Positions 27,854-48,822 of a stretch of 64,000 nt of DNA are shown in pieces. The DNA lies in assembly GCF_023055435.1 (NCBI RefSeq), contig NW_025963802.1, positions 17,546,001 through 17,610,000 of the forward strand, in the 5' to 3' direction. Source of the DNA: Haliotis rufescens. Taxonomy: Eukaryota. Within the stretch, counting starts at the first letter, position 1. Each line of letters begins with the position of its first letter. The translations under genes were made by a program, and so were the position numbers. The notes under the pieces are model-generated. The model saw only the letters and a program-made list of their open reading frames with translations, searched no databases and was not told the origin of the DNA.

Positions 27854-27998
27854 ATGATTCCAAAACAATGGCTTCCAGGGGCATGTTTTCTGATTGGCTG
27901 TTTTGGGTTGGTGATGCCACAGCCCGTTGTCGGAATACAGTCGGCTAAAAATGACTTCGCTTTCCAGCTTCAACTCGACCGCCAGTTTGCGATAACAG
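27854..27998 (+). CDS. Peroxidase-like B exon 1 (signal peptide MIPKQWLPGACFLIGCFGLVMPQ...)
   Basis: Acceptor ttttacag at 27792, ATG 27854, donor G|gtatg. QLQLDRQFA parallels gene [10 protein letters not shown]. Confidence 0.8.
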
Positions 27999-30900
27999 GT
28001 ATGTTTTCTTGCTTAAACATACCTCAGTATTTCTCGCAAGTCGAATGAATTTGGAAAAAAACGTTTAAAGCAGATTTGTGTATGAGTATGAGAAGGTCTT
28101 GAGAGACGATCCAAAATAATACCCTCGTGAGACGATCCAAAATAATACCCCTGTGAAACGAAGGTAAAGGCGGTACACGCATGCTGTAGTGCTCATGAAG
28201 GTAGTTCACAGTCATACGATCGGTGCGACCATGTCTAATACATTTCATAGAAATATTCCCAGTGGGTTAAACCCGTGAAGATCTGGGAGATCTTCAGCAA
28301 CCCATGCTTGTCGTAAAAGGCGACTGTGCTTGTCGTAAAAGGCGACAGACGGGATCGCTGGTCAGGCTCGCTGACTTCGTTGATGCTTGTCATTGATCCC
28401 AATTGCGTGGATCGATGCTCATGATATCAATCGCTAGATTGTCTGGTCCAAGTTCGATTATGTACAGACCGCCGTCATATAGCTAGAATATTGCTGAGTG
28501 CGGCTTAAAACAACAAACCAACCAACCAACCAACCCAGTGGGTTAAATAGATCTCAAAAAGATTCCCAGGGTGTATCCTCCACATGTTTATGTTCCCTAA
28601 CTTTTTTGTTCAGTATGTAAAGAATATTTCACTCGTTCTCGTAAGATCCACTTACCATGTTTCTGACCGAGAAAACGCGAAGTGACATACTATAGAAACT
28701 ACACGTGTTTCGTAAGGTGAGGTGTAATGGCGTTTAACGTCGTGCTCTGGTGATAGAGCGTCCTCCCGGAGAGCGGAAGGTTCCGGGTTCAATGCCAAGC
28801 CGCGTCATACCAAAAGACGTTAAAAGATGGTACTTGTTGGTACCCTGCCTGGCTCTCTGTATGTAGGGGCTAAAACAAGGAGTCGTCGGCACGGAGTCAG
28901 TATATTGTGTCTGAGTGGGGAATTCATGTTAAAATGCAGCATGGTATCTCAGTGGACTGGCACTATAAAATCGGCATTAATTCGGAATAGTACAAACAGC
29001 CACACACACACACACAGCCACACACACACACATGTGCATGCACGTCGTTTTATAAATCTTAACGCGTGGATAAAGCGCATTTCACCTCATTGTATCCAAT
29101 GAATCTGCTTAAATTTGATTGACATTCAAGAACCCAATACATTGCAATGTTGTATTGAGATTGATCGTCCTTGGAGAATACTTCTGTACATTTGATTGAT
29201 AGTCAAGAACCCAATACATTGCAATGATGTATTGAGATTAGTCGTCCTTGGAGAATACTTCTGTACATTTGATTGATAGTCAAGAACCCAATACATTGCA
29301 ATGATGTATTGAGATTAGTCGTCCTTGGAGAATACTTCTGTACATTTGATTGATAGTCAAGAACCCAATACATTGCAATGATGTATTGAGATTAGTCGTC
29401 CTTGGAGAATACTTCTGTACATTTGATTGCTAGTCAAGAACCCAATACATTGCAATGATGTATTGAGATTGATCGTAATGCAGGAATCTTCTGTACAATT
29501 GATTGATAGTCAAGAACCCAATACATTGCAATGATGTATTGAGATTGATCGTAATGCAGGAATCTTCTGTACATTTGATTGATAGTCAAGAACCAATACA
29601 CCACATTTTGTATTACGATTGGTCGTTTCTGTTGTAGATGTAGATTCTTCAAGGCCGTCTGCTCGAGCCTCGCACACCGCATTTTCAGGTAGCGGCGCTA
29701 TAGCTCGTGCACTTGGCGACCAGTTTTTGAACCGCATAACAGCAGCTAGGAACGCAGCACCCGGGTGAGTCTAGGCCAAGTCACTACATTTTGATGGACA
29801 AGTCTCTATAACATACAGCTATTTGAATACATCGATGATTGATACGTCGCCTGGAGACGTCCAAACGATTGAGTAAAATCGTGTGTTTTATCTCAAAGTG
29901 ACGCATATTCTATTGGTGTCATAATCTTATAAGAAATTCTCCAAATGACTTTAAGATATATGTGCCCAACGTCCTACAGTATGTTCATTGTAGAAATCCT
30001 TGAAGTCGTAGTGACCCAATGTGGATTCCAGGTCAGAAAAGGAGCCGGCTGGTGGGGCTTACAAAGAACTTGGTTCAAGATTAACACAAAAATGTACAAA
30101 TAGAAGAAGTTAAGTTTATAGTAACTAGGAAATTTAAAAAGTTGGCAGGTATTTAATCGTGTATTTAAAATTGTGTTCCCAAATGTGTTGTTGCTGTGTG
30201 ACTAATAGTACTCTCTCATACAGGAAACGGAAGCCGACAATGACAAGATATCTGATTACGAGGGCTGGTCAAAACGATCTAAGCCTGACTTACTATGGGT
30301 CATAACAAAGTGAACAAAGTGAACAAGTCAATGTAGTTCACCGATTGAGTAGTTCATTGCACTGTTTTTGGTCTGTTGTGGCCGTATGTATATTAGTGAC
30401 AGCCAGTTGAACGTGATAGGGCTTAAAATGGACACAGAAAAGAACGAATACCGCTTTTGACTTGAGAAAAGTACTCCGCATGTCACAAGTGTAGGGGGAT
30501 AAGTGCCCCAGCTATTCCACTGTTAAACGTTGGGCAGCTCTGCTTAAGGCTGGGAGAACAAGCCTTGATGGTGACCCTAGGTCTGGACGTCCCTCAATCA
30601 AGATTCAATCAAGGAGATAGAAACAATTATACTGTCAGATAGACGTATTACCATTGCTGAACTTGAGGAAGACGCAGGTCTAGGCCATGGATCCAGTGAA
30701 ACGATTATTCATGAACATTTACAGAATAATGAATAAGACATCTGCTCGTTGGGTGCCAAAGTTTCTTAATTCTGATCTTAAGAAACAAAGAACTGACATT
30801 GCCAGAGAAATTTTAAAGCTAATTGAAGAGGATTTCGTCAAGTTCAAAAAGAGATTAGTAACGGGTGATGAAACATGGGTCTACCACTATGATCTCGAGT

Positions 30901-33900
30901 CAAAACGTCAATCCATGGAATGGTACCATTCCACTTCTCCGGCACCAAAGAAATTCAAGTCTTCAAGATCAGTGAAGAAAGTTATGGCCACTTATTCTGG
31001 CATGCAAAGTGTGTGATCCGTGTTGATTACTGGTGTGGTCGGATAGCCTAGTGGTTAAAGCGTTCGCTCGTCACGCCGAAGACCCGGGTTCGATTCCCGA
31101 CATGGGTACAATGTGTGAAGCGCATTACTGGTGTCCCCCGCCGTGATATTGTTGGAATATTGCTAAAAGCGGCGTAAAACCATACACACTCACTCACTTG
31201 TTGATTACTTTGAAAGTCAAAAAGGATTTCCACCTGTTTCCTAAACTGAAAGAACGCCTTCGTGGATACCACTATGACGACAACGATGACCTCAAAGCTG
31301 CCGTGAATGGGTTTTTCAGTGTGGCTTCAGAAAACTTCTTCCTGACTGGAATTGAATAGCATAACGATCGATATGAGAAGTGTATTGAAAAGCAGGGAAA
31401 GTATGTTGAAAAAATAAATAAAAACACTTTCAAAATTGTCGGTTTTGTTTGTTAGGTTTAGAACTTTTTGACCAGCGCTCGTACTACGATATACCCTTAA
31501 CCCTTTTTTATTATTTATGTTTTAGTTTGAAATGTGCATTTTTCAATCAGACAGTCACGGTTATATTAACTTGTTTCATATGCTTAAAATAGAACGGAAC
31601 GTTTCAGAATCTGTCAATTGAATTACCTCAACCAATTGGTGTTAACATACCTTACTCATATGCAGTTTCATTTTGTGCCTTGTATACTTTAAAGATCCCT
31701 TTCATCGTTAGGTTTGATGTAGACGAACAGTTTTCATGATAATTGAAACCCTCACCAAAAGGGGGCGGTCGGGTAGCCTAGTGGTTAACGCGTTCGCTCG
31801 TCACGCCGAAGACCCGGGTTCGATTCCCGACATGGGTACAATGTGTGAAGCCCATTTCTGGTGTCCCCCGCCGTGATATTGCTAGAATAGTGCTAAAAGC
31901 GGAGTAAAACCGTACTCACTCACTCACTCTCACCGAACGGAACAACTATAATAGACCTGGCTATTGAAGACGACAGTGTATACCTTTATATATTTCAATG
32001 TTTCCAGTTAATCCATTTAATTCCAACAATATTAATATATTAGCCCATTTCATTTTCCTATTTCCGCCAAGACCCCGGCCTGGTGCGACCCTTCAGGAAT
32101 TCGAGGACACCATGAAGCAGGCGATGATGGCAATTCCAAAGGTTGGGGTGTGTTCAGCCTTCATGGGCGTCTGTGACAACTCAAGCATCTACCGCACAGC
32201 CGACGGCAGCTGCAACAACCTCAACAACCCAACATGGGGAATGTCCAATACACCACAGAGACGCTACTTGCTGCCCAAGTATAATGACGGTTAGTAGTGG
32301 TTCTTGAAGTCCGGTGATTGAAGGGTAATTGGTGGTACTATTGTCATTACTGAATATCTATGATCCACTCAAGCAGTTGTCCCCTTTTGCGTTAACTGTT
32401 ACGCCCAAATGAATCTGTTTCGGCATATACTTGAGACTGATTATTCCCTGGCGTTGAAGCTTTACAATTACGTACACCATAGACAACACGAAACTAAAAC
32501 AGTAAACTAGTGATTGATAGCATGAGCGTGTTATATTTGTCGATAAGGCATGGCGACACACAAGTCCGTGAGCCACTATATCACTGCTTAGAGCATGGGC
32601 CACATAGAAGAATGGCTCTTTGCATGAGACGATCTTCGAGATATTTTATGACACGGGTCACACATTTTAAGCACCTAGTCAACCGGTCTGTTTCTAGGAC
32701 AAGCTACTGATCATATGTTCTTAAACGGTAGTCCCACAAGAACAGGAGTGATCTATCAAGCTGGACATCAAGTACTGCTTGGTACCCATATGGCTGTAAT
32801 GCTATCATTTCGGTAGTCTCGACACCAGAAAGGAACGTCCTTTGTATCCATTGGCACAGGTCGTTTGAGACGCCGCTCTTCGCTGTGAAGAGTTGCCTCC
32901 CTTTGGCGTGCCAGAAACCTATGATCGTAGGTTTAAAGACCAGGTTGGTTCAGATTGTATTTCGAGGTTTGTCATGTTCGTGCTCGTGGGCCTCCAGAGA
33001 GGTAAATATTCGTCATTTCGGGCTTTCCTCTCACATTACGCAGTGATACAACCAACTCACGCACTTACCCACTCACCTTTACATTGCTGTTATGTAGATA
33101 AACGCGACGTTAAACCGCTCACTAAGATATAATAGAATGCTGTACATGTGTATATAAGTATTCATCTTTCCTCTGTGTGTATGATGGTCCAGTGGTCTAA
33201 GGCTACGTGGATTTGCGCCCCTTGTTGTGCCAGGAGCCCATGATCATGGGTTCGAGTCCCAGATTCACCCTGATGATTATTCATGTTTTGGCAGCACTCT
33301 ACCACGCATCATCTTCCCGATGCAAGAGAGTTAACTGACTATAAAAGTCCAGTTTCCACCCTTGCCGAATTAGGCTGGTATTATGGAGTCTCAATATGGC
33401 TGGACTAACGAGTCTGTGCATTGTCCAATCAAAATCGCGCAACGAAATCTGCATCCGTTTCGTAAACTGTCGTGCAGATTTCGGTCGATTGCAGGATTTG
33501 CGCATGCAAAGCATGTGCACCGCCAACTCCTTGTCAACAGATATTTTCCCAAACTTTTCATGTTTTTAATAAAGGTGCTCACGTGATTTGCTGCACTTCG
33601 CGATGTAAGACCCGATTTATCACAATATGGATCTTGATTATCGATCAGATCGTCTTGACTTGGCGCCGCCATTTTGTTTGAAACAAATGCAAGTGATACG
33701 AGAGGTGGAAACTGATTGGTCCATGGAAGAGGTTTAGAAGGGTCACAACTCGTAATCACCACTGGTGGAGCTGCGATCGAGCCCAGGAATTCCAGTCTAG
33801 TTCGGCAAGGGTGGAAACTGGACATTTAAAGTCAGTTAACTCTCTTGCCTCGGATACTGTTCAAAGTATAGTTAGACTCAACTCACTCACCTCATTGAAT

Positions 33901-36900
33901 GTTAAGGAATACGCAGTCCACGTACTCGTGGTGTGTTCAGCGATCCTCTGCCAAGTGCCCGACTGGTCAGCACCACCGTCCACGCCCCCGACGACAAGGC
34001 CCCTCAGATGAAATTCATCTCCCAAATACTGACGCAGTGGGGGCTGTTCCTGGCCCTCGACATCACAAGCACGCCAATAAGGACAGGTGCGTCCGACGTC
34101 CAACTGCGTGCGTGTGTGTGTGTGTGTCTATGTGTGTAAGTGTGTTTGCGTGAGTGTGTCTGTCTGTGAGTGTGTGTTTGTTTGTGTGCGTGTGTGTGTG
34201 ATTGTATCTGTGTGTGTGTTTGTTTGTATGCGTGTGTGAGTGTCTGTGTATGTGTTTGTTTGTATGCGTGTGATTGTGCCTGTGTGTGTGTTTGTCTGTA
34301 TGCGTGTGTGTGAGTGTCTGTGAGCGTGTATGTGTGTGCACGATTGTGCGTTAGTGCGTTTGGGTGTGCTTGTATGTGTCGGACTAGTACCCCAAATTAT
34401 ACGGTTTATGGCGAACTTGGACGATCTTCTGTAATAAATGTACCTAAGATCAGAATGGTCTCTTTTGGGGCAAAACTCCGACCCGGAAAATCATCAAAAT
34501 TATCTTTACTGATTTACAAGCTTTGATATAATGATAACCTATTTCAAAGACGCAAACATAAATGGATAACGTTTGTAAAACAAATCTTCGACGATCTTGG
34601 TCAAAGTTTCATTTGGCAATCACAAAGTTTTCATAGTCCAAATCATCTTAAAAATATGAATAAGAACAAATTAAATGATATCAATTTACAATGCTGGAAA
34701 GTCACCCGACATATATATTACAAAGGAGCCATGCATACCATGGTATGAATCCCTGAATTTCAAAAGTTATTTAAAAATGAAAGTAAGTATTTGGTAAGAC
34801 TTATTACAATTTAGAACCTCCAATCACAATCTCCCAATTGAAACTGGAAAATGGTAAAAGAAAATANNNNNNNNNNNNNNNNNNNNNNNNNNNNNNNNNN
34901 NNNNNNNNNNNNNNNNNNNNNNNNNNNNNNNNNNNNNNNNNNNNNNNNNNNNNNNNNNNNNNNNNNNNNNNNNNNNNNNNNNNNNNNNNNNNNNNNNNNN
35001 NNNNNNNNNNNNNNNNNNNNNNNNNNNNNNNNNNCGTTAATGTGTGTGATATATGTGTGTGTGTCTGTATATGATTGTGTGCGTGAATGTGTTTATGTGT
35101 GTCTGTAATTGTCTGGGANNNNNNNNNNNNNNNNNNNNNNNNNNNNNNNNNNNNNNNNNNNNNNNNNNNNNNNNNNNNNNNNNNNNNNNNNNNNNNNNNN
35201 NNNNNNNNNNNNNNNNNNNNNNNNNNNNNNNNNNNNNNNNNNNNNNNNNNNNNNNNNNNNNNNNNNNNNNNNNNNNNNNNNNNNNNNNNNNNNNNNNNNG
35301 TGTTTGTTCATCATATTCCACAGTTGTGTGTAACAATCGCGTTCAATTTGCTTATAATTTTGTTTTGTGTAATTTGTTGCATCTTTTGCTTCTTTTAAAT
35401 ATTCAACAGTTTTGTTTTGGGTTATTTATTTTTATTTTTATTTTTGTCAAACACAGTGGTAAATATAACAGCTCGTGTCTTTTATACAGGACTTGACGGT
35501 CGACCTCTGACGTGTTGTCCTGAAGACCTTCCGCCTCTGCTGAAGGGGATTCTTGACACGGCTCTTAGGTACTACATGTGTTTCTAAGATGCTTCGCTAA
35601 GAGATCAAAGGCGCCTGCTGTACTTTATCCTGCGTACACTTTCTGAGTTAAGTCATAATATATTCACGTCATGGCGCTGTTCAGATTACCTCCCCCGTGA
35701 TCTAGCGTATCCTTGGTAACATCGTTCTTTCATTACTATCAAGCAAGATGTCGCATTCACAACAAGATTCGACGAAAGAGCTTCTTTAAACTTGTCGAAT
35801 ATATGAGTATTATTACCTGGGAAGACATATGGCAAGATAATTATACTTACCATAATTCAATCCACTGGTCCGTGGTCATAAAATTGTCCGTTGCAGGCGT
35901 TAATGCCTTACGAATTATGGTTGTCTCTCAGGACAAAGGAATGAGCAGTCCATGAAAAGTACCATAACCACATGTCGACATCTTCCGAAGTCAAGGGAAT
36001 TGACAAGTACAAGTCCTATACAAGACTATACAAGTCCAGTTTTCATCCTTGCCAAAATAGGCTGGAATAATGGAGTTATGTTTTGGCTGGATTAACGAGT
36101 CATTGCATAATCCAATCAAAATCGCGTAACGAAATCGACATCTGGTTCTTAAACTGCAGTGAGGATTTCGGTCGATTGCAGGATTTGCAAGTCATGTGTA
36201 CCGCCAACATTCCTTCAACAGAAAATTTCCAAATCTTTTCACGTTTTTAATAAAGGTGCTCACGTGATTTGATGCACTCCGCAAAGTCAATATAGATCTC
36301 GATTATCGAACAAATTATCTTCACTAGCGCCGCCATTTTGTTTAAAGTTAATGCAAGGTATATGAGAGGTGGAAGCTGATTGGTCAACAGGACCAGTGAT
36401 GCAGGTCTCAGACGTTTACCACTTCGGTGAAATCCATGAGCACGGGTATGGTGCTGACCTAGAAACATAATCGGGGCGAGCCGGGATTCGAACCCACAAT
36501 TATAGGTGTCTGGCGTGCCCTAGGAACGCAACTCTGCACATCGAATCGCGGCACCTTAGACAACTGGGCCACCCGTGCCCCCATTAAAAAAGAACATCCA
36601 TTTTGCAAGCATGAATATTATCATTGATATTTTTCAAGTGGCGATGACAGTAATAGGGTCTACGTATGCCACTCATAATAGCATTTCAATTGTATGTGTG
36701 TCAGCTTAATGTGCTCGGCATCCTTGAATAATGTGGCAATGTGACGCCGCCCGTAAACATTTATCGCTGTTGTGAAACCCTAAAATACGCGTATGATGCA
36801 GATCATCTGTACGAAACTCATCTTCCCGAGGCAAGAGAGTTAACTGACTTCAAAAGTCAAGTTTCCACCCTTGCCGAACTAGGCTGGAATTACTGGACTC

Positions 36901-39900
36901 GATCGTAGCGCCACCAGTGGCTATTACCAGTTATGTCCCTTCTAAGCTTCTACTATGGACCAATCAGATTCCACCTCTCGTATCACTTGTGTTTGCTTGA
37001 CACAAAATGGTGGCGCCCAAACAGGACGATCTAATCGATAATCAAGATCGATAATCAAGATCTTACACCACGAAATGCATCAAATCACGTGAGGACCTTG
37101 ATTAAAAACATGAAAAGATTTGGGAAATATCTGCTGACAACATGATTGGGGTGCAACAGAAATATTTCTTTTTAGGATACACACCTACAATATTTGTGTT
37201 CACAGAGACGGGTGTTTCCCTATCGATATCCCCCAAGGGGACAGGTTCTTCCGTAGGAGATGCATGCACTTTCCCCGGTCTATACAGGTAGAGAATCCGC
37301 AGTGCACTGGAGGTATGTCCCCAACACGTCTCCGTAGGTTCTGGATATCGGTGAGTGAGTGAGGTGATTTAAACGCCGCTTTGAACAGCATCCAGTCCTA
37401 TCACGGCGTATCAACTTGATTTGGGAGAAACGCCCGATGTGCTGCAGGTCTTAGACGTTTACCCCTTTGGCGAAACCCCCGAGTTTGAACGCAGGATCAT
37501 TGGTTCCTCGTACGAACAAGGGATGCAACTCTGCACAGCGGCACCTCAGACGACTGGGCCACCCTAAAACCATGTCCTTGTATCCATGGTAGTTTAATAT
37601 ATAAACAAAATCAAAATCTTGGGCCAATAAGTTAAAGTCTCATGAGTCGTTCCTAGAAAGCATCATGTGGAGGTTTGCAGTATGTCTGTTTGTTTCTTGT
37701 TAAACGAACACTCAGCATATTCCAGCTATAAAACGGAGGCCTGTTTATAATAGTGTCTGGGACAGACAACACCAGGGTACGATGACACGCAATCAATCAG
37801 GTCATTGTGTTTGACCACATCTATTTTAATCGCCTTGCACGACACACTTAGGTTACAGGGAACCAATTCTCACCAGGATTGACCAGAAGCGATCGAGCTG
37901 ACTACTTATCCAGGGCGCCGCGATTCGCTTACAGAGTCGCGTCCCTTGGGCACTCAGGAAACCTATGATTGTGGGTTCGAATCCCGGTTCACCCCGATTA
38001 TGTTACCAGTTTTGTCAGCACCACAACCATGCTGGTGGGTTTCACCGAAGTGGTAAACGTCTAAGACCTGCATCACTTCGGGCTTTCCTCCCACATTAAG
38101 CTGACACGCCGTGATATAACTGGAATACTGTTACCACCCTACCAAAACCCGTTAAGCATACCTCACTCACTCACAGACATCACATAACGACATTAACTCG
38201 GGTAGTTTGCAACTTGATACTACGGCTTGTAGGGGATTAGGGTTGACTTTTTATAGAAACCAAATATGTGCATGACAGTAAGTTTTGTCACTTTCAATAT
38301 TTGAAATTTAAAAGGAATCATTAAATAACCAGCAGGCTTTCCTCATCATCTTAATATACATTCACGGGTCTATAAATACTCACCAAATACCATTCAGAGT
38401 AATGTGCCTTTGCCAAATCCTCAGTTCATCTAAACAATTCACCTCTCTGGTGTCTCTATGTGCTGTGTCTTGCAGTGCCAGCGGAGCAGCTCAACCAACG
38501 GACGGCGTACATCGACGCCTCCCCTCTGTATGGGACGACTGCTGAAGAGGCCGCAGGCCTCAGGGCCATGGTTGATGGTGAATATGTATATGTACCACCA
38601 TTGGGCAGGACTTGTTCGCGAGCACATGGCATAATGATTATTTGATAGTCGCGCTGATGATATAGTCGGAAACGTACAATGGATTTTGCTTTCAGCGGGG
38701 AGTTCTTATGACTAATGGTGTGCCGCTTTTCTTTACGACGTCGTCTTTTCATAAAACAAATAAGCCCTCTCGGTTGGATAAGATGTTTTGCTCCATCATT
38801 ATTGTTTGGGGCATAATAAGATTAAGTGACAAACAATGTTTGAACATTTCTTCAGACTGACTTTCTTCTTCCCTTTAGTGTAAATTTCAAATGTTCGAAT
38901 AGATATTAAGTCTGTATTGTCAACGGTAAATATTTGATTCATGCTTTATGATGATATTTTGTCAGGTTTATTGAAAACGTCGATGGGGGTGTCAAGTATA
39001 CAGACCATATTCATGAGAGAGCATAACAGAACAGCCCGGTCTCTCAAGAAGATCAACCCACATTGGAATGACGAAAGACTCTTTCAGGAGACCAGGAGAA
39101 TTATTGGCGCCATCGTCCAGAAGATTACTTATAACCATTTCCTTCCGCTCGTTCTGAACAAGTTCGCCCTCGCCAAGTATAAACTGGGGTCCCCCAGATA
39201 CGGATACTATAACGTTTATAGTAGATCCACTGACGCAAGCATCGTTAACGCGTTTTCGACAGCCGCATTTCGGTTCGGACACTCCATTCCTAGATCTGTG
39301 GTCAGCAGAGTGCGGCCGGACTTCTCCACAAGGAGGTTTGAGCGTTTGTTCCGGGTGTTCCTCAACACCGGGTCAAGTGATGGGGAAGCTGTTGGTGACT
39401 ATGTAAGGGGTGAGTTGAACGACAGAGCGAATCCGGTTGACCGCTTCATGTCGACGGATCTGACAGACAGGCTGTTTCTCGTCAATAACAACAGCCTCGA
39501 TCTGGCCGCTTTCAACATCCAGCGGGGTCGGGACCATGGTTTGCCGGGGTATTCGGCGTTCAGGCAGCTGTGTGGTCTACCCGGGGTGTACAACTTCCGA
39601 CCTTCCCATGGAGGACTCGTGGACCATGATCCCCACACTGCAAGACTTCTGGAATCTGTCTACAAGTTAGTCTCTGCACATGTTTCGCATTACACAGTGT
39701 GTTTCACAGCACTTTTCCTAAAACATCAATTTAAAAAAAATTCATTTCTTTTGCATACCGAGTAACCTCGTTAGTCTGGAAACCACTCCTGTCTGGCCAT
39801 CATTATGAAAGTGCTACCTAATCAAAGGGACATTACTCTAAACCATGATTCGTTAATCCAGACCTCGTTAGTCTGGAAACCACTCCTGTTGGGCCATCAT

Positions 39901-42900
39901 TATAAAAGTGCTACCTTATCAAAGGGACATTACTCTAAACCATGATTCTTTAATCCGGAAACGAGATATTTCACCGTTCGGATTAACGGGGATTGAGTGT
40001 ATATGTTCAATGGCATCACTCCGAAATTTGCAAACACGAAACAAATTAACGTTTGAGCTTGTCATTATGTTTACTTTGGAGAAGTAGTTTCCATGCCATG
40101 ATATACCATGTTGAATCCCAGCCGTTAAATGAATACTGAAAGATCAGCGAGGATTCCGGAACTCAGTGTCCCATGCTTGTCGTAAGACGGCTAATGAGGA
40201 TTGGGTGGGTACAATGAACGAACAGGAGGGGTGTGTCACCGTGCACCAGTTGCTTGGCTCGTCCCTACTGCTCACAGCCGACATCATTATTTTGTGGCTT
40301 TCATATCGCTGAATGCGGCGTAGAATAACATGCACTTATTCAGTCTATATTTGTTTGTTTCTTTCTTTCTTTCTTTGGTTGGTTGGTGGGTTGATTGTTC
40401 ATTGAGGCCGTACTCAGCAATATTCTAGTCATATGACGGCGATCTGTATATTATCGAGTCTGGACCAGGCTGTCCATTTGACATCAAGAGCATCGATCTA
40501 CGCAAATGGGATGCGATGACATGCATCAACTATGTCAGCGAGGTCTGACCACCCGATCCCGTAAGCATGGGTTGCTGAGAACCCATTCTAACCCGGTTCT
40601 TCGCGAAAGCCTTCGTCTATAACTCATTAAACTTTTTACAGGGATCCTGAGGATATTGACCTGTTTACTGGAGGGGTCTCGGAGAAACCAATCGAAAAGA
40701 GTTTAGTTGGACCCCTGTTTACCTGTCTACTGGGACGTCAGTTTTCAGCCTTGAAGAGAGGGGATCGGTTCTGGTATGAGCTCAGTGACCCTGTCACGCG
40801 GTTTACACCGGGTGAGTGAAAAGTATTTCACAGAGCGTGAGTTGGGGTTAACGCCGCTTTTAACATTATTCCAGTTATATCACGGCGTGTCAGCTTAATG
40901 TGGGAGAAAAGCCCGACGTGATCCAGGTCTGAGACGTTTACCACTTCGGTGAAACCCACGAGCACGGGTATGGTGCTGACAAACCTAGAAACATAATCGA
41001 GATTCGAACCCAGAAGTACCTGATGGCATGGATAACACGACAATCGAACATTTCTCAGCAGGCATGTCTACTGCTGGTCAGTGCTTTTGCAAAAGGTGAT
41101 CTTAGCGTTAAGGTGATCTTTAATACAGACTTACGACAGTCGGAGCGCTCAGATCGCTTTGCCGGACGGGGCACAGTGAACCGTTCTACACATGGTCTTG
41201 GCGCTAAGGCGACTGTAACTCACATTCTTCAAATACACTTACGACAGTCGAACGTCTCAGATCGCTTTGTAGAACGGAGGCAAGTGAACCGTTCTACACA
41301 TGGTCTTAGTGCTAAGGCGATCGTAACTTAATTTCTTCAAAATACACTTACGACAGTCATGGGGCTCAGATCGCTTTGGAGAACGGTGCCCAGTGAACCG
41401 TTCTACACATGGTCTTAGTGCTAAGGCGATCGTAACTTAATTTCTTCAAAATACACTTACGACAGTCGTGGGGCTCAGATCGCTTTGGAGAACGGTGCCC
41501 AGTGAACCGTTCTACACATGGTCTTAGTGCTAAGGCGATCGTAACTTAATTTCTTCAAAATACACTTACGACAGTCGTGGGGCTCAGATCGCTTTGGAGA
41601 ACGGGGACCAGTGAACCGTTCTACACATGGTCTTAGGGCTAAGGCGATCGTAACTTAATTTCTTCAAAATACACTTACGACAGTCGTGGGGCTCAGATCG
41701 CTTTGGAGAACGGTGCCCAGTGAACCGTTCTACACATGGTCTTAGTGCTAAGGCGATCGTAACTTAATTTCTTCAAAATACACTTACGACAGTCGTGGGG
41801 CTCAGATCGCTTTGGAGAACGGTGCCCAGTGAACCGTTCTACACATGGTCTTAGTGCTAAGGCGATCGTAACTTAATTTCTTCAAAATACACTTACGACA
41901 GTCGTGGGGCTCAGATCGCTTTGGAGAACGGTGCCCAGTGAACCGTTCTACACATGGTCTTAGTGCTAAGGCGATCGTAACTTAATTTCTTCAAAATACA
42001 CTTACGACAGTCGTGGGGCTCAGATCGCTTTGGAGAACGGTGCCCAGTGAACCGTTCTACACATGGTCTTAGTGCTAAGGCGATCGTAACTTAATTTCTT
42101 CAAAATACACTTACGACAGTCGTGGGGCTCAGATCGCTTTGGAGAACGGTGCCCAGTGAACCGTTCTACACATGGTCTTAGTGCTAAGGCGATCGTAACT
42201 TAATTTCTTCAAAATACACTTACGACAGTCGTGGGGCTCAGATCGCTTTGGAGAACGGTGCCCAGTGAACCGTTCTACACATGGTCTTAGTGCTAAGGCG
42301 ATCGTAACTTAATTTCTTCAAAATACACTTACGACAGTCGTGGGGCTCAGATCGCTTTGGAGAACGGTGCCCAGTGAACCGTTCTACACATGGTCTTAGT
42401 GCTAAGGCGATCGTAACTTAATTTCTTCAAAATACACTTACGACAGTCGTGGGGCTCAGATTGCTTTGGAGAACGGGGACTAGGACGCTAAGGTACCCTG
42501 TATGTATACACTTCAGTTGTAGGTGAGTTGATACATTTACGTGAATGTCACAGCTGGCACTTTTTCATCTCTATTATTGTTCCTTTCTCTAGATGCTACT
42601 TAACTGTAAACTCTACGAGGTGGAAGTCGGTTTGGTAACGGTAAACCTCCAATCAAAGCACTAATTAATAGCTTTTTATGCAATATAATGATCGAACTGA
42701 GTCTTCGAATCCGGAACATGACATCATGGCTGATAACAAAGCGACGTATTGTAAAACCTGCAAACAATGACAGTCGCTGTTGTTATTCATTATAAGTTAA
42801 AGTCGTATACATGTCCACGATTCTCATTAAACTGAACTATTCTTCCAGATCAGCTGTTGGAGATTCGAAAGACCACCCTGTCCCGCATCGTGTGTGACAA

Positions 42901-43913
42901 CACCAATACCTTCCACGTCCAGAGAGATGCCTTCAGACTCAAGTCCGCATCGTACGTACGCATTTACGGGTTCATTCGGCTGATTTCGATACCCTAATAA
43001 CAACTTCGGGCAGCGATGCAGTAGGGATATTGCATGAATTCTCTTTCGTCTATGGGGCCGCAATTCGCTGTGCAGAGTTGCGTCCTTTAAGTGCGCCAGG
43101 AACCTATTATCATGAGACAGAATCCCGGTTCGCCCAGAATATATTTCTAGGTTTGTCAGCGCCATGCCCATGCTCGTGGGTTTCACCAAAGTGACCGTCT
43201 AAAACATTAACTCCGTCTGGCTTCCCCCCACAAGAATACAGCTAACAAACAGGCATTTCTTTGCAACGCAGCGCAAAACCAAATCAATCAGTCACGTGAC
43301 AGGACATTCATCCAATAACATGTACATGTACTTTCAGTCATCTTGAGTGTGGTTACAACATACTACTAACTTAGATAAAATGAAGTTTTGAAAAAGTTGT
43401 CAACATGTGAAAAATAAAATTAATTTAAGTTAATTTAACAAATTCTGTATACAGAGAGCTTAAACATTTTAACTTGCATTTTCTTGGCATCAAATTTCAT
43501 CACACTCACAAATACTTGCAATAAGACAAATGCATACTCTGGAAATGTGTGTTGAATATTTTTACAATGAAACAAGTCACATGGTACAGACATATATAGA
43601 GAATCCGTTATATGTTCCGCTACTCCAGAAACAACCGATTCTCTTGCTACAGACCTATATTGCAAACATGCGCATGTTAAATGTATTTCATGTATTTCTT
43701 GTCTCCAGGAATCACCGTGTCCCGTGTTACAGCTTGCCTCGTCTGGACCTGACCAAGTGGAGAGAACAACAGCCTCAGTGGTCAAGCTGGTCCGCCGCGT
43801 CAGACTGTTCAACCAGAGTTACCTTCCAGTTCCGGAGGAGGACGTGCATACCGGAAGAAGGTGGATGTCGCGGGCCGCGGGAAATGAGGCGCATGTGCCC
43901 GTCACGGGGGTAG
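27854..43913 (+). CDS. Secreted peroxidase-like protein B (peroxidase-cyclooxygenase superfamily; distal catalytic residues lost; C-terminal TSP1-like repeat), 11 coding exons, ~711 aa
   Basis: Exons 27854-27998, 29638-29764, 32072-32289, 33907-34086, 35490-35568, 37206-37312, 38476-38577, 38966-39665, 40642-40811, 42849-42951, 43709-43913 join in frame (2136 nt including TAG), all GT-AG. Motifs: YRTADGSCNN, LPSARLVS, EQLNQRTAYIDAS, FMREHN, AFRFGHS, LAAFNIQRGRDHG, DIDLFTGG, GDRFWYE, LSRIVCDN. Confidence 0.92.
28272..28533 (+). mobile_element. Short retroposon family A
   Basis: 14-bp TSD CCCAGTGGGTTAAA; (AACC)n tail. Confidence 0.9.
28745..29090 (+). mobile_element. SINE family D
   Basis: Same core and (CA)n-containing 3' part. 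Confidence 0.8.
29127..29600. repeat. 76/77-bp tandem repeat (~6 units)
   Basis: CAAGAACC starts at 29127, 29204, 29281, 29358, 29435, 29511 and 29587. Confidence 0.95.
29638..29764 (+). CDS. Peroxidase-like B exon 2
   Basis: tgtag|...GG|gtgagt; DVDSSRPSARASHTAFSGSGAIARALG is homologous to gene A exon 2. Confidence 0.85.
30259..31481 (+). mobile_element. Decayed mariner (Tc1/mariner) transposon
   Basis: TA-flanked TIRs CGAGGGCTGGTCAAAA / TTTTGACCAGCGCTCG; ARWVPKFL and TGDETWVYHYD motifs; frameshifts, internal deletion and a SINE insertion. Confidence 0.92.
31033..31198 (+). mobile_element. Short tRNA-derived SINE family C inserted in mariner
   Basis: A box TAGCCTAGTGG, B box GGTTCGATTCCC, TSD TGTTGATTACT. 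Confidence 0.9.
31761..31928 (+). mobile_element. SINE family C
   Basis: Nearly identical to the 31033 copy; TSD CTCACCRAA. Confidence 0.9.
32072..32289 (+). CDS. Peroxidase-like B exon 3
   Basis: YRTADGSCNNLNNPTWGMSNTPQRRYLLPKYNDG; donor gttagt. Confidence 0.92.
33310..33853. mobile_element. Same MITE family, intron 3 of gene B
   Basis: Long TIR GCAAGAGAGTTAACTGACT...CTTGCCGAA. Further pieces at 36030-36390 and 36819-37150. Confidence 0.82.
33907..34086 (+). CDS. Peroxidase-like B exon 4 (distal helix, QWGLFLALD)
   Basis: PRTRG..DPLPSARLVS...TQWGLFLALDITSTP; aag| acceptor, gtgcgt donor. Confidence 0.9.
34105..34380. repeat. Imperfect (GT)n microsatellite
   Basis: GT-rich run following exon 4. 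Confidence 0.9.
34385..34866 (+). mobile_element. LINE 3' fragment
   Basis: TPNYTVYGELGR, and FRTSNHNLPIETGKW near 34810. Confidence 0.7.
34867..35299. other. Two assembly gaps (34867-35034 and 35119-35299)
   Basis: Runs of N. Confidence 0.99.
35490..35568 (+). CDS. Peroxidase-like B exon 5
   Basis: ttttatacag|GLDGRPLTCCPEDLPP...|gtact; phases 1/2 fit both neighbours. Confidence 0.8.
37206..37312 (+). CDS. Peroxidase-like B exon 6
   Basis: CFPIDIPQGDRFFRRRCMHFPRS, the typical CFPI.IP..D.F....CM.F.RS motif. Confidence 0.9.
37911..38172 (+). mobile_element. SINE family B
   Basis: B box GGTTCGAATCCC, body and (CACT)n tail. Further copies near 2615-2817, 12320-12460, 17410-17630, 32790-33070, 36395-36582, 37350-37563, 40836-41020, 43055-43190, 49975-50105, 53601-53832, 58110-58330, 60000-60135 and 63330-63430. 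Confidence 0.85.
38476..38577 (+). CDS. Peroxidase-like B exon 7 (Ca2+-binding loop)
   Basis: EQLNQRTAYIDASPLYG. Confidence 0.92.
38966..39665 (+). CDS. Peroxidase-like B exon 8 (proximal His/Asn; lacks GDxRxNE segment)
   Basis: GLLKTS runs directly into MGVSSIQTIFMREHN; AFRFGHS; NIQRGRDHG; donor AA|gttagt. Confidence 0.93.
39757..40002. mobile_element. Pogo/Tigger-like MITE with an internal ~97-bp tandem duplication
   Basis: ACCTCGTTAGTCTGGAAACC repeated at 39765 and 39862; right end GGATTAACGGGGATTGAGTGTA. Confidence 0.5.
40378..40605 (-). mobile_element. Short retroposon family A (intronic)
   Basis: Similarity to other copies. Confidence 0.78.
40642..40811 (+). CDS. Peroxidase-like B exon 9
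   Basis: DIDLFTGGVSE...VGPLFTCLLGRQFSALKRGDRFWYE; donor gtgagt. Confidence 0.92.
41075..42480. repeat. 109-bp tandem array of a MITE-derived monomer (~13 units)
   Basis: About 10 near-identical units from 41391, preceded by 2-3 diverged ones; homologous to the MITE at 57329. Confidence 0.95.
42849..42951 (+). CDS. Peroxidase-like B exon 10
   Basis: QLLEIRKTTLSRIVCDN...QRDAF. Confidence 0.92.
43709..43913 (+). CDS. Peroxidase-like B exon 11 (end of peroxidase domain plus TSP1-like tail)
   Basis: NHRVPCYSLPRLDLTKW, then WSSWS..SDCS...QFRRRTC...GCRG...RMC, stop TAG. Confidence 0.88.
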
Positions 43914-44546: not shown

Positions 44547-47500
44547 TCACACTCACGAATCACCGTGACACTACAATCAGAATCCCTTCAACACCACACT
44601 CACGAATCACCGTGACACTTTAATTGGAATCTCTTTAACACCACACTCACGAATCACCGTGACACTATAATCAGAATCCCTTTAACACCACACTCACGAA
44701 TCACCGTGACACTTTAATTGGAATCTCTTTAACACCACACTCACGAATCACCGTGACACGACAATCAGAAGCCCTTTAACACCACACCCACGAATCACCG
44801 TGACACGACAATCAGAATCCCTTCAACACCACACTCACGAATCACCGTGACGCTACAATCAGAATCCCTTTAACACCGCACTCACGAATCACCGTGACAC
44901 TACAACCAGAATCCCTTTAACACCACACTCACGAATCACCGTGACACTTTAATCAGAATCCCTTTAACACCACACTCAAGAATCACCGTGACACTACAAT
45001 CAGAATCGCTTCAACACCACCCACGAATCACCGTGACACGACAATCAGAATCCCTTCAACACCACACTCACGAATCACCGTGACGCTACAATCAGAATCA
45101 GTTCAACACCACTTACGAATCACCGTGACACGACAATCAGAAGCCCTTTAACACCACACCCACGAATCACCGTGACACGACAATCAGAATCCCTTCAACA
45201 CCACACTCACGAATCACCGTGACGCTACAATCAGAATCCCTTTAACACCGCACTCACGAATCACCGTGACACTACAACCAGAATCCCTTTAACACCACAC
45301 TCACGAATCACCGTGACACTTTAATCAGAATCCCTTTAACACCACACTCAAGAATCACCGTGACACTACAATCAGAATCGCTTCAACACCACACCCACGA
45401 ATCACCGTGACACGACAATCAGAATCCCTTCAACACCAAACTCACGAATCACCGTGACACTTCAATCAGAATCAGTTCAACACCACTTACGAATCACCGT
45501 GACACGACAATCAGAATCCCTTTAACACCACACCCACGAATCACCGTGACGCTACAATCAGAATCCCTTTAACACCACACTCGCGAATCACCTTGACACT
45601 ACAATCAGAATCCCTTTAACACCACACTCACGAATCACCGTGACACTACATTCAGAATCCCTTCAACACCACACTCACGAATCACCGTGACACTACAATC
45701 AGAATCCCTTCAACACCACACTCACGAATCACCGTGACACTACAATCAGAATCCTTTAACACCACACTCACGAATCACCGTGACACGACAATCAGAATCC
45801 CTTTAACACCACACTCACGAATCACCGTGATACTGCAATCAGAATCCCTTCAACACCACACTCACGAATCACCGTGACACTACAATCAGAATCCCTTTTA
45901 ACACCACACTCACGAATCACCGTGACACTTTAATCACAATCCCTTTAGCACCACACTCACGAATCGCCAGACACGACAATCAGAATCCTTTAACACCACA
46001 CTCACGATCCACCATGACACTACAATCAGAATCCCTTTAACACCACACTCACGAATCACCGTGACACTTTAATCACAATCCCTTTAACACCACACTCACG
46101 AATCACCGTGACACTTTAATCACAATCCCTTAAACACCACACTCACGAATCACCGTAACACTACAATCAGAATCATTTTAACACCACACTCACGAATCAC
46201 CGTGACACTACAATCAGAATCCCTTTAACACCAAACTCACGAATCACCGTGACACTACAATCAGAATCCCTTTAACACCACACTCACGAATCACCGTGAC
46301 ACTACATTCAGAATCCCTTCAACACCACACTCACGAATCACCATGACACTACGATCAGAATCCCTTCAACACCACACTCACGAATCACCGTGACACTACA
46401 ATCAGAATCCTTTAACACCACTCACGAATCACCGTGACACGACTATCAGAATCCTTTAACACCACATTCACGATCCACCTTGACACGACAATCAGAATCC
46501 TTTACCACCTCTCACGAATCTCCGTGACACGACAATCAGAATCCCTTTAACAACACACTCACGAATCACCGTGACACTACTATCAGAATCCCTTCAACAC
46601 CACACTCACGAATCACCGTGACACTACAATCAGAATCCCTTTAACACCACACTCACGAATCACCATGACACTACATTCAGAATTTCTTCAACACCACACT
46701 CACGAATCACCGTGACACTACAATCAGAATCCCTTTAACACCACACTCACGAATCACCTTGACACTACAATCAGAATCCCTTCAACACCACTCACGAATC
46801 ACCGTGACGTTACAATCAGAATCCCTTTAACACCACACTCACGAATCACCGTGACACGACAATCGGAATCCCTTTAATACCACACTCACGAATCACCGTG
46901 ACACTACAATCAGAATCCCTTTAACACCACTCACGAATCACCGTGACACTACAATCAGAATCCCTTTAACACCACTTACGAATCACCGTGACACTTTAAT
47001 CAGAATCATTTAACACCACTCACGAATATCCGTGACACGACAATCAGAATCCCTTCAACACCACACTCACGAATCACCGTGACACTACAATCAGAATCCC
47101 TTTAACACCACACTCACGAATTACCGTGACACGACAATCAGAATCCCTTTAACACCACACTAACGAATCACCGTGACACTTTAATCAGAATCCCTTAAAC
47201 ACCACACTCACGAATCACCGTGACACTACAATCAGAATCCCTTTAACACCACACTCACGAATCACCGTGACACTACAATCAGAATCCCTTTAACACCACA
47301 CTCACGAATCACCGTGACACTACAATCAGAATCCCTTTAACACCACACTCACGAATCACCGTGACACTACATTTAGAATCCCTTCAACACCACACTCACG
47401 AATCACCGTGACACTACAATCAGAATCCCTTTAACACCACACTCACGAATCACCGTGACACTACATTTAGAATCCCTTCAACACCACACTCACGAATCAC

Positions 47501-48242
47501 CGTGACACTACAATCAGAATCCCTTTAACACCACACTCACGAATCACCGTGACACTACATTCATAATCCCTTTAACACCACTCACGAATCACCGTGACAC
47601 TACAATCAGAATCCCTTTAACACCACACTCACGAATCACCGTGACACTACATTCAGAATCCCTTCAACACCACACTCACGAATCTCCGTGACACTACAAT
47701 AGGAATCCCTTCAACGCCACTCACGAATCACCGTGACGCTACAATCAGAATCCCTTTAACACCACACTCACGAATCACCTTGACACTTTAATCAGAATAC
47801 CTTTAACACCACAATCACGAATCACCGTGACACTACAATCGGAATCCCTTTAATACCACACTCACGAATCACCGTGACACTACAATCAGAATCCCTTCAA
47901 CACCACTCATGAATCATCGTGACACTACAATCAGAATCCCTTTAACACCACTCACGAATCACCGTGACACTACATCAGAATCCCTTTAACACCACACTCA
48001 CGAATCACCGTGACACTACAATCAGAATCCCTTCAACACCACTCACGAATCACCGTGACACTACAATCAGAATCCCTTTAACACCACTCACGAATCACCG
48101 TGACGCTACAATCAGAATCCCTTTCACGCCACACTCACGAATCACCGTGACACTACAATCAGAATCGCTTTAACACCACACTCACGAATCACCGTGACAC
48201 TACAATCAGAATCCCTTTAACACCACACTCACGAACCACCGT
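44547..48242. repeat. 47-bp minisatellite (~79 units)
   Basis: CTCACGAATCACCGTGACACTACAATCAGAATCCCTTTAACACCACA with 45/46-bp variants. Confidence 0.97.
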
Positions 48243-48259
48243 CAATTTACAAATATCTA

Positions 48260-48822
48260 AAGGGGCTCTCACACTTTTCCTAGTTGTGTCCCGAGTATGG
48301 ACCCGAGTTGACTCCGGGATACTCATATGGAGCTTGTAGCGAGGTCGTACTAAACTCGGGGTAAATCGGGATACCTCGTACTGATCTACGAGAGTTTTGG
48401 AACTGCTCAAAACAGTTGGGCCGCCAGCCAACTCCTAGTAAACACGTAACAAACTCGTAACACACTCGTCCTACTCGTAGTACCCTCGTGGCGACCTCGT
48501 GGTGCTCGTACAGAACTCTGCAAAATTTATTGCCGAGTTGACCGAGTCTAATACGAGCTGTGCGAGAGTAATTACCGCCGAATTATTTCGCAGCTCGTAG
48601 CCACCTCGTACTAAAGTCGTACCAAACTCGTATCGAGATCGTTGTGCTCGTATGCAACTCTTAATAGGCTCCTATTGAACTCCTATTGGACTCCTGTGGG
48701 GCTCGTAACACACTCGTAGCGTACTCGTATGATACTCGTATATATGTAGTCTCTTCCCGAGGCCTAACCGAGTTAGGTTCTGGAGAGCTCGGCAACCACC
48801 TCAGCAAAGTGAGAGAGCTGCT
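48260..48822. mobile_element. MITE-like element rich in CTCGTA/TACGAG motifs
   Basis: Imperfect TIR GGGGCTCTCACACT / AGTGAGAGAGCTGC; dense short internal repeats. Confidence 0.4.

What the first reader, a model, noticed from the sequence alone, without database searches (positions are those of the whole stretch)
38966..39030. In-frame deletion of the catalytic-Arg loop inside exon 8
Seen: GLLKTS is joined directly to MGVSSIQTIFMREHN with no intron between them. Known: in this family these blocks are separated by several tens of residues including LP...C...CF.AGD.R.NE, which carries the distal Arg, the heme-linked Glu and a Cys pair. I found no such exon in 38578-38965, and it could not be spliced into this position anyway. 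Inference: a frame-preserving deletion that also removes both cysteines of the loop.
Basis: partly seen in the sequence, partly recalled or inferred. Interest (0 to 1): 0.7.

Follow-up and report, generated by a model that had tools for sequence, protein, structure and literature searches.

The report
Abalone peroxidase stripped of catalytic side
An abalone gene for a peroxidase-type protein has lost its peroxide-splitting residues, partly through a deletion that fused two exons, yet it is still spliced, conserved across species and predicted to fold, so it likely serves as a non-enzymatic binding protein.

Summary
The junction is real and apparently fixed. It is neither a mis-assembly nor a rare null allele. 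Contigs from 3 of 3 DNA-type runs cross it unchanged. All 5 RNA-type runs splice exon 7 to exon 8 and read through it. The H. cracherodii ortholog has the same junction.

Compared with the neighbouring sister gene A, 30 codons and a whole intron are missing. So this is an exon fusion, not a deletion inside one ancestral exon.

The loop is only half of the damage. The distal Gln, Asp and His in exon 4 are Leu, Ala and Leu. This is the only His-less copy among 75 such exons found in the genome. H. rubra and H. asinina relatives also lack the His but damaged the loop differently (Arg to Pro, no Cys pair).

Everything else is conserved: proximal His/Asn, the calcium site, 126 of 142 family-conserved positions, pN/pS of 0.12-0.19, and a confident myeloperoxidase-fold model. 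Gene B keeps a TSP1-like tail that catalytically intact gene A has let decay.

Verdict: a conserved, expressed pseudo-peroxidase, likely a non-catalytic binding or matrix protein. It is a new variant of a known kind (PXDNL, DUOX peroxidase domain). Function is untested.

The parts
38966..38982 (+). Remnant of the ancestral small exon (GLLKTS), first 17 nt of exon 8
   Evidence: 5 of 6 residues match the start of gene A's 84-nt exon
38982..38983 (+). Fusion junction Ser325/Met326; 30 codons and one intron missing relative to gene A (distal Arg, Glu, Cys pair, LP motif)
   Evidence: crossed by DNA and spliced contigs
38983..39665 (+). Remnant of the ancestral large exon: REHN helix, proximal side, QRGRDHG motif; carries a second, 3-codon deletion near 39370
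38578..38965 (+). Intron 7 (388 nt, GT..AG); holds no hidden loop exon
   Evidence: joint seen in 5 of 5 RNA-type runs
34044..34061 (+). Degenerate distal helix in exon 4: Gln to Leu210, Asp to Ala213, His to Leu214; calcium-binding Asp215 kept
   Evidence: 1 of 75 such exons lacks the His
39271..39282 (+). Proximal side kept: Arg422 and heme-ligand His425 (FRFGH)
39514..39525 (+). Asn503 (partner of the proximal His) and Arg506 kept
38476..38577 (+). Exon 7 with the calcium-binding loop (TAYIDAS) kept
40757..40765 (+). RGD tripeptide (592-594) in exon 9, where the family most often has KGD
   Evidence: RGD in 4 of 4 B rows and in 10 of 143 others; KGD in 27 of 143
43767..43910 (+). C-terminal TSP1-like tail in exon 11, kept in B and decayed in A
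   Evidence: 33 against 6.5 bits with an own profile; below the Pfam cut-off
27854..43913 (+). Whole gene B, 11 exons, 711 aa, open frame, canonical splice sites: 27854-27998, 29638-29764, 32072-32289, 33907-34086, 35490-35568, 37206-37312, 38476-38577, 38966-39665, 40642-40811, 42849-42951, 43709-43913
   Evidence: translates exactly to P0121
1026..3424 (-). First three exons of sister gene A (catalytic residues intact), head-to-head with gene B; the rest lies left of the window

Best explanation
Gene B is a spliced, conserved duplicate of a heme-peroxidase gene that lacks the distal His, Arg, Gln, Asp and Glu, is therefore predicted to be unable to use hydrogen peroxide, and likely works as a secreted non-catalytic binding or matrix protein. 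Likely history: a tandem duplication gave genes A and B. B lost the distal His and Asp by point changes before the abalone lineages split (inferred). The Arg loop, no longer needed, then decayed: by an exon-fusing deletion in the lineage of this genome and H. cracherodii, and by shortening plus Arg-to-Pro in the H. rubra / H. asinina lineage. Selection kept the fold, the calcium site, the proximal side, an RGD motif and a TSP1-like tail, while A kept catalysis and let the tail decay. That is a likely division of the ancestor's enzyme and binding roles. Shown: lesions, splicing, sharing between species, purifying selection, contrast of the tails. Predicted: fold. Inferred: loss of activity, secretion, order of events, binding role.
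For: The junction is shared and spliced. Distal His-Arg are described as the pair needed for heterolytic H2O2 cleavage, Asp94 and Glu242 as the heme ester links (PMC3533774 passages). All are absent here. Changing only the Gln and Asp abolished peroxidasin activity (PMC8533639 passages). The damage is targeted: P0121 keeps 126 of 142 family-conserved positions, and 14 of the 16 losses lie in the distal helix or the loop. Purifying selection: against organism C, 8 synonymous and 3 non-synonymous changes in exon 8, pN/pS 0.12, P=0.001; second run of the same organism 9 and 5 in exons 7-8, 0.19, P=0.002; divergent organism A haplotype 4 and 2, 0.17, P=0.04. Identity to the H. cracherodii ortholog is 95.6% for B and 96.1% for intact A. 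Five B sequences from four named species form one clade, sister to A (SH-aLRT 99, quick tree). AlphaFold model pLDDT 93.4, junction block 84; myeloperoxidase fold Z 37.8, rmsd 2.0 over 508 residues. TSP1-like tail 26-36 bits in three complete B proteins against about 6 in two A proteins. Peroxinectins bind integrins through RGD/KGD (PMC4420034 and PMC12675793 passages).
Against: No activity, heme content, tissue or partner was measured. The tail scores only 7 bits on Pfam TSP_1 (cut-off 21.6), and the H. asinina tail has no Pfam hit. My profile came from 16 tails picked by a W-rich pattern. RGD lies in a structural x-G-D motif (Asp594 invariant in 147 rows), occurs in 10 of 143 other rows, and may be incidental. 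The signal peptide was judged by eye. The northern and southern B groups are far apart on the tree (about 0.5 changes per site against 0.15-0.46 for other pairs), so they may be old paralogs rather than orthologs; no southern ortholog of A was recovered. The substitution counts are small. The retained proximal set fits a heme-binding role equally well.
Confidence: 0.6

Rival explanations
1. B is a re-purposed heme or tetrapyrrole-binding protein. It would hold heme through His425, non-covalently, in an opened, water-repelling distal pocket, as a carrier, scavenger or gas binder. This can coexist with the best explanation.
For: Arg422, His425, Asn503 and Arg506 are kept in the four B rows of the alignment. 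Of 50 domains without the distal His among 451 scored, 42 also lack the proximal His, so keeping it is unusual; only 2 lack both distal His and Arg but keep it, and both are B-clade (P0121, P0001 and P0004 were split by the profile and not counted). The replacements are hydrophobic in both groups (Leu/Ala/Leu; Val/Phe).
Against: B keeps almost every conserved position outside the distal side, so keeping four more is only suggestive. The 451 domains are search hits, not a census. Both ester-link residues are gone. No ligand was modelled.
Confidence: 0.22
2. B is a decoy or regulator of its active neighbours (A and the shell-matrix peroxidases next to A), competing for their substrates or pairing with them.
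For: B lies head-to-head with A. A contig matching the intact paralog occurs beside the B contig in 3 of 4 runs. Peptides of the abundant H. laevigata shell peroxidase idb_25746 match the next gene of the cluster, P0112/P0494. An antagonist role of PXDNL is recalled, not read here.
Against: One of the 4 runs shows B with no A contig listed. Neighbourhood does not show interaction. The southern species keep B although no A ortholog was recovered.
Confidence: 0.1
3. B is still an enzyme with different chemistry, for example a lipid-hydroperoxide or dioxygenase-like reaction in an open hydrophobic pocket.
For: The superfamily includes cyclooxygenases and alpha-dioxygenases (structural neighbours, Z 21-26). 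The proximal side is intact.
Against: Three residues before the proximal His, B has Arg422, not the radical Tyr of those enzymes (position recalled). No polar distal residue replaces the His or the Arg. The two B groups have different loops.
Confidence: 0.06
4. B is a transcribed pseudogene, a rare null allele or an assembly error.
For: Large family (113 exon matches) with some broken copies; catalytic residues lost.
Against: Open 711-codon frame, canonical splicing, the same junction in independent DNA and RNA contigs and in another species, pN/pS well below 1.
Confidence: 0.02

Closest known systems
Peroxinectin-type invertebrate heme peroxidases (peroxidase-cyclooxygenase superfamily, Pfam PF03098)
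   Same: Fold, calcium site, proximal His/Asn, exon phases shared with gene A, an integrin-type tripeptide.
   Different: Q-x-x-D-H-D and R-x-x-E signatures destroyed; loop of 30 residues with its Cys pair deleted.
Human PXDNL (peroxidasin-like protein)
   Same: An expressed paralog of an active peroxidase with no measurable activity and an unknown function (PMC8533639 passages).
   Different: PXDNL changes Gln, Asp and the proximal Asn but keeps His-Arg. B removes the distal His and Arg and keeps the proximal Asn; it has no LRR or Ig domains.
Peroxidase homology domain of dual oxidases
   Same: Catalytically degenerate domain kept in the same fold.
   Different: DUOX lacks the proximal His and is part of a membrane oxidase; B keeps the proximal His and stands alone.
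First domains of two-domain invertebrate peroxidases and other degenerate domains among the hits
   Same: Non-catalytic domains kept by selection are common in the family (116 of 451 scored domains lack the proximal His).
   Different: They usually lose the proximal His and keep a loop of normal length (median 54 residues in the scored span, against 31 in the southern B). A scallop protein (P0382) has His to Leu with the proximal set intact but keeps the Arg and a full loop.
Abalone shell-matrix peroxidase idb_25746 (H. laevigata)
   Same: Its peptides match a gene of the same cluster and sister clade.
   Different: That gene keeps the distal His, Arg and Glu. It is not gene B.

Membership tests
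Peroxidase-cyclooxygenase superfamily (homology and fold) | PF03098 match above the cut-off | tested here: met
   518.9 bits, cut-off 25, split into two stretches at the deletion
Peroxidase-cyclooxygenase superfamily (homology and fold) | Myeloperoxidase-type helical fold | tested here: met
   Predicted model pLDDT 93.4; Z 37.8, rmsd 2.0, 508 residues against 7oih
Active heme peroxidase | Distal His in the D-H-D motif | tested here: not met
   Ala213-Leu214-Asp215
Active heme peroxidase | Distal Arg (R-x-x-E motif) | tested here: not met
   Deleted
Active heme peroxidase | Heme ester-link Asp and Glu; halide-binding Gln | tested here: not met
   Asp to Ala, Glu deleted, Gln to Leu. The Glu also varies in many intact paralogs.
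Active heme peroxidase | Proximal His with its Asn partner | tested here: met
   His425 and Asn503
Active heme peroxidase | Calcium site (Asp after the distal His plus the T-x-Y/F-x-D-x-S loop) | tested here: met
   Asp215 and TAYIDAS
Active heme peroxidase | Heme binding and peroxide-dependent oxidation | not testable with these tools
   Needs purified protein
Peroxinectin | KGD/RGD integrin-type motif | tested here: met
   RGD 592-594; may be incidental
Peroxinectin | Cell-adhesion activity | not testable with these tools
Peroxinectin | Catalytic distal residues for hypohalous acid production | tested here: not met
   See above; B may work like the adhesive half only
Pseudoenzyme (conserved dead paralog) | Catalytic residues lost, frame open, transcript spliced, purifying selection | tested here: met
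Pseudoenzyme (conserved dead paralog) | Protein made and shown to be inactive | not testable with these tools
   No proteomic or enzymatic data for B
Thrombospondin type 1 repeat (tail) | Pfam TSP_1 gathering score | tested here: inconclusive
   7 bits against a cut-off of 21.6; 33 bits with a profile of 16 peroxidase tails
Cyclooxygenase / alpha-dioxygenase | Catalytic Tyr three residues before the proximal His (recalled) | tested here: not met
   Arg422 at that place

The most novel reading that the evidence does not exclude
Abalones have turned a heme peroxidase into a dedicated heme or tetrapyrrole carrier. The proximal His holds the ligand, the distal pocket was made hydrophobic, and its lid was removed twice by different mutations, opening a cavity that could deliver pigments or heme to the shell or other secreted matrix beside the shell-peroxidase cluster.
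Probability: 0.15. Interest if true: 0.75.

Novelty: new variant of a known kind. Interest (0 to 1): 0.48.

Why it matters
Dead peroxidase paralogs are known, but their jobs mostly are not (PXDNL is called practically unknown in PMC8533639). This one offers a clean natural pair. A keeps catalysis and has a decayed tail; B keeps the tail, the RGD and the proximal side and has lost the distal side, in two different ways. The pair makes a standing question testable: are the adhesive and enzymatic roles of peroxinectin-type proteins separable? It also shows, as a predicted structure, that the fold tolerates removal of the whole Arg loop. In practice, this gene is annotated as peroxidase-like and would be misread as an antioxidant or cross-linking enzyme in abalone expression studies.

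Tried and rejected
Hidden loop exon in intron 7 or elsewhere in the window: none.

Loss of the small exon plus decay of the next exon's start: rejected, because GLLKTS matches the small exon at 5 of 6 residues and the large exon's start only at Gly.

Gene conversion from A into B just after the junction: nucleotide identity is high there (87-91%) and 8 of 9 fourfold sites match, but the scan-corrected permutation P is 0.37. Not supported.

Microhomology at the junction: none evident against gene A; the ancestral B sequence is unknown.

First structure prediction with 15 sequences failed (pLDDT 47) and was not used. A hard-coded count (9 and 2) was wrong and is corrected to 8 and 3. The tree is the quick one; the careful search did not finish.

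Presence of A or B in the H. laevigata shell proteome: six peptide strings gave no match attributable to A or B in 24 of 27 supplementary files of PMC6003135 (the only hits belong to idb_19812). This is weak, since the strings came from other species and three files were not searched.

Further B orthologs: the search of shorter proteins listed none among its best 120, nor did the representative library among its best 150 beyond P0001.

No holder was on record as RNA, and tissue is unknown. No complex prediction was run: two domains exceed the size limit and binding is not claimed.

Literature: nine searches listed no paper whose title or abstract start describes this gene. The library lacks most subscription journals. 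Earlier scan notes: none.

Full report
Setting. The window is G000:C24:17546001-17610000 of a 1.33-Gb genome. The gene holding the finding (gene B) translates exactly to P0121, which its source names peroxidase-like of Haliotis rufescens. It has 11 exons from 27854 to 43913, canonical splice sites and 711 codons. Gene A (P0011) lies head-to-head on the minus strand, starting at 3424. Three more paralogs follow to the left of A.

The observation. Exon 8 starts at 38966 and reads GLLKTS, then MGVSSIQTIFMREHN, with no break. No loop-like segment exists in intron 7 or elsewhere in the window. In 29 of 29 other loci fetched, the matching exon opens with G-D-x-R (30 of 113 matches were fetched).

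It is not an artefact. DNA contigs from 3 of 3 runs span 38200-39070 with no insertion at the junction. One is a divergent haplotype (20 substitutions, 3 intronic insertions) that still has the same junction. One run shares its study with a possible source of the assembly, so two studies are independent. Five of five RNA-type runs from four studies, labelled organisms A, B and C, join exon 7 to exon 8 across a 388-nt GT..AG intron and cross the junction. One 2393-nt contig carries exons 6, 7 and 8 with no difference in exon 8. Organism B is identical to the window in exon 8 and adds little independence; organism C differs at 11-12 of 700 letters. P0001 (H. cracherodii) has the same junction. 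Contigs drop rare alleles, so strict fixation is not proven.

What the lesion is. Gene A has 12 exons and B has 11. All other introns match in phase, and seven exons match exactly in length. A's exon 8 (84 nt), intron 8 (578 nt) and exon 9 (715 nt) correspond to B's single 700-nt exon. B's first six residues match A's small exon (5 of 6), and B resumes at the M-G of A's large exon. So 30 codons and the intron are missing, plus 3 codons further on. The last deletion event may have been shorter if the loop had already shrunk, as in the southern species. The removed stretch aligns with the myeloperoxidase segment holding two cysteines, Arg239 and Glu242 (numbering from PMC3533774; that the two cysteines form a disulfide is recalled).

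The larger picture. Exon 4 carries Leu210, Ala213 and Leu214 at the places of the distal Gln, Asp and His, each one base change from the family codon. Of 75 such exons found in the genome with gene A's exon as query, 74 keep the His and only B lacks it (strongly decayed copies could be missed). Relatives named H. rubra (two) and H. asinina (one) also lack D-H (Val-Phe). In the two whose models are sound here, the loop is shortened by 16 residues, without cysteines, with Arg to Pro and Glu to Gly or Ala. The five B proteins form one clade, sister to A (SH-aLRT 99 each, quick tree of 42 rows). The simplest reading is that the His loss came first and the loop decayed afterwards by different routes. 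Caveat: the two B groups are unusually distant (65% identity against 67-86% for most other pairs checked; one pair at 44% was probably not orthologous), so they may be old paralogs, and no southern A was recovered.

The rest of the protein is under constraint. Of 142 positions conserved in at least 75% of 143 other family members and in A, P0121 keeps 126, and 14 of the 16 losses are in the distal helix or the loop. Kept are Arg422, His425, Asn503, Arg506 and the calcium site. Synonymous changes dominate: 8 to 3 against organism C in exon 8 (pN/pS 0.12, P=0.001), 9 to 5 in a second run of that organism (0.19, P=0.002) and 4 to 2 in the divergent haplotype (0.17, P=0.04). B and intact A are equally conserved against H. 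cracherodii (95.6 and 96.1%). With 147 aligned sequences AlphaFold gives pLDDT 93.4, and 84 across the junction. The model matches myeloperoxidase (TM 0.84 by target length; Z 37.8, rmsd 2.0). Such a model leans on intact relatives and shows plausibility only.

How unusual. Among 451 complete domains in my hit sets, 50 lack the distal His and 42 of those also lack the proximal His. Only two lack both distal His and Arg while keeping the proximal His, and both are B-clade (P0121, P0001 and P0004 were split by the profile and left out). Degenerate domains are common in the family, but this pattern was seen only here. The hit sets are biased by the queries.

How it likely works. Without His-Arg, heterolytic peroxide cleavage is not expected (PMC3533774, passages), and loss of only the Gln and Asp abolished peroxidasin activity (PMC8533639, passages). 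What B keeps and A has lost is the C-terminal tail. A profile from 16 TSP1-like tails of other peroxidases scores B at 33, 36 and 26 bits (15 for a truncated H. rubra model) and A at about 6, although Pfam's own threshold is not met. B also has RGD where A has KGD, the motif type linked to peroxinectin adhesion (PMC4420034 and PMC12675793, passages). That TSP1 repeats bind matrix glycans and proteins is recalled. I therefore commit to a split of roles, A the enzyme and B a secreted non-catalytic binder (0.6), with the dead-but-selected part alone at about 0.9. Rivals: heme or tetrapyrrole carrier 0.22, decoy of neighbours 0.10, altered catalysis 0.06, pseudogene or artefact 0.02.

Context. Peptides of the very abundant H. 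laevigata shell peroxidase idb_25746 (PMC6003135: passages, and rows of supplementary file 9) match, by eye, the gene next to A (P0112/P0494), which keeps its catalytic residues. B therefore sits in a cluster with a shell-matrix enzyme. B itself was not found in the supplementary files searched, and its tissue is unknown.

Novelty. Inactive members are known: PXDNL, DUOX domains, short peroxidasins. B differs in stripping the whole distal side, deleting the Arg loop by exon fusion and keeping the proximal side. Nine literature searches showed no description of this gene in titles or abstract starts. Papers read, passages only: PMC6003135 (plus supplement searches; files 25-27 unseen), PMC8533639, PMC9138014 (nothing relevant), PMC9952403, PMC5379566, PMC3533774, PMC4654585, PMC4420034, PMC12675793. 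Verdict: real, a new variant of a known kind, interest 0.48.

Noticed in passing
window 39364-39375: Second in-frame deletion of 3 codons in exon 8, shared with H. cracherodii and absent from gene A and the southern B proteins.
   Followed up: partly
window 39025-39033 (Asn340-Arg-Thr): An Ile-to-Thr change creates an N-glycosylation sequon on the helix just after the deleted loop in this genome and H. cracherodii; probably buried, since Asn340 is invariant.
   Followed up: no
L004 / L033-L034 (G000:C24, about 17.51-17.525 Mb): The paralog next to gene A matches peptides of the major abalone shell-matrix peroxidase idb_25746. It and its two neighbours have His in place of the distal Gln.
   Followed up: partly
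L011 (G000:C24:17478802-17479419): A paralog of the same cluster has a frameshift just after REHN: broken copy or assembly error.
   Followed up: no
L032:8461-8604 (gene A last exon): Gene A's tail keeps four cysteines but has lost the W-S-x-W and R-x-R pattern of TSP1-like tails.
   Followed up: partly
G000:C24 6.89-7.16 Mb; C112; C68; C577: Large tandem arrays of near-identical peroxidase genes (about 20 copies on C24). Five copies on C112 have Ala in place of the ester-link Asp.
   Followed up: no
P0382 (Mizuhopecten yessoensis by its source name): Independent scallop peroxidase with Gln to Thr, Asp to Val and His to Leu, and an intact proximal set; a possible convergent pseudo-peroxidase.
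   Followed up: partly
window 41129-42476, 29113-29600, 39765-39956, about 12960-14830 and 44700-48300: Tandem repeats: 109 bp x 12.4, 77 bp x 6.4 and 97 bp x 2 in introns of gene B; further arrays of repeated units outside the gene.
   Followed up: no
window 37930-38135 and 38653-38696: High-copy interspersed repeats inside introns 6 and 7, with very high contig depth.
   Followed up: no
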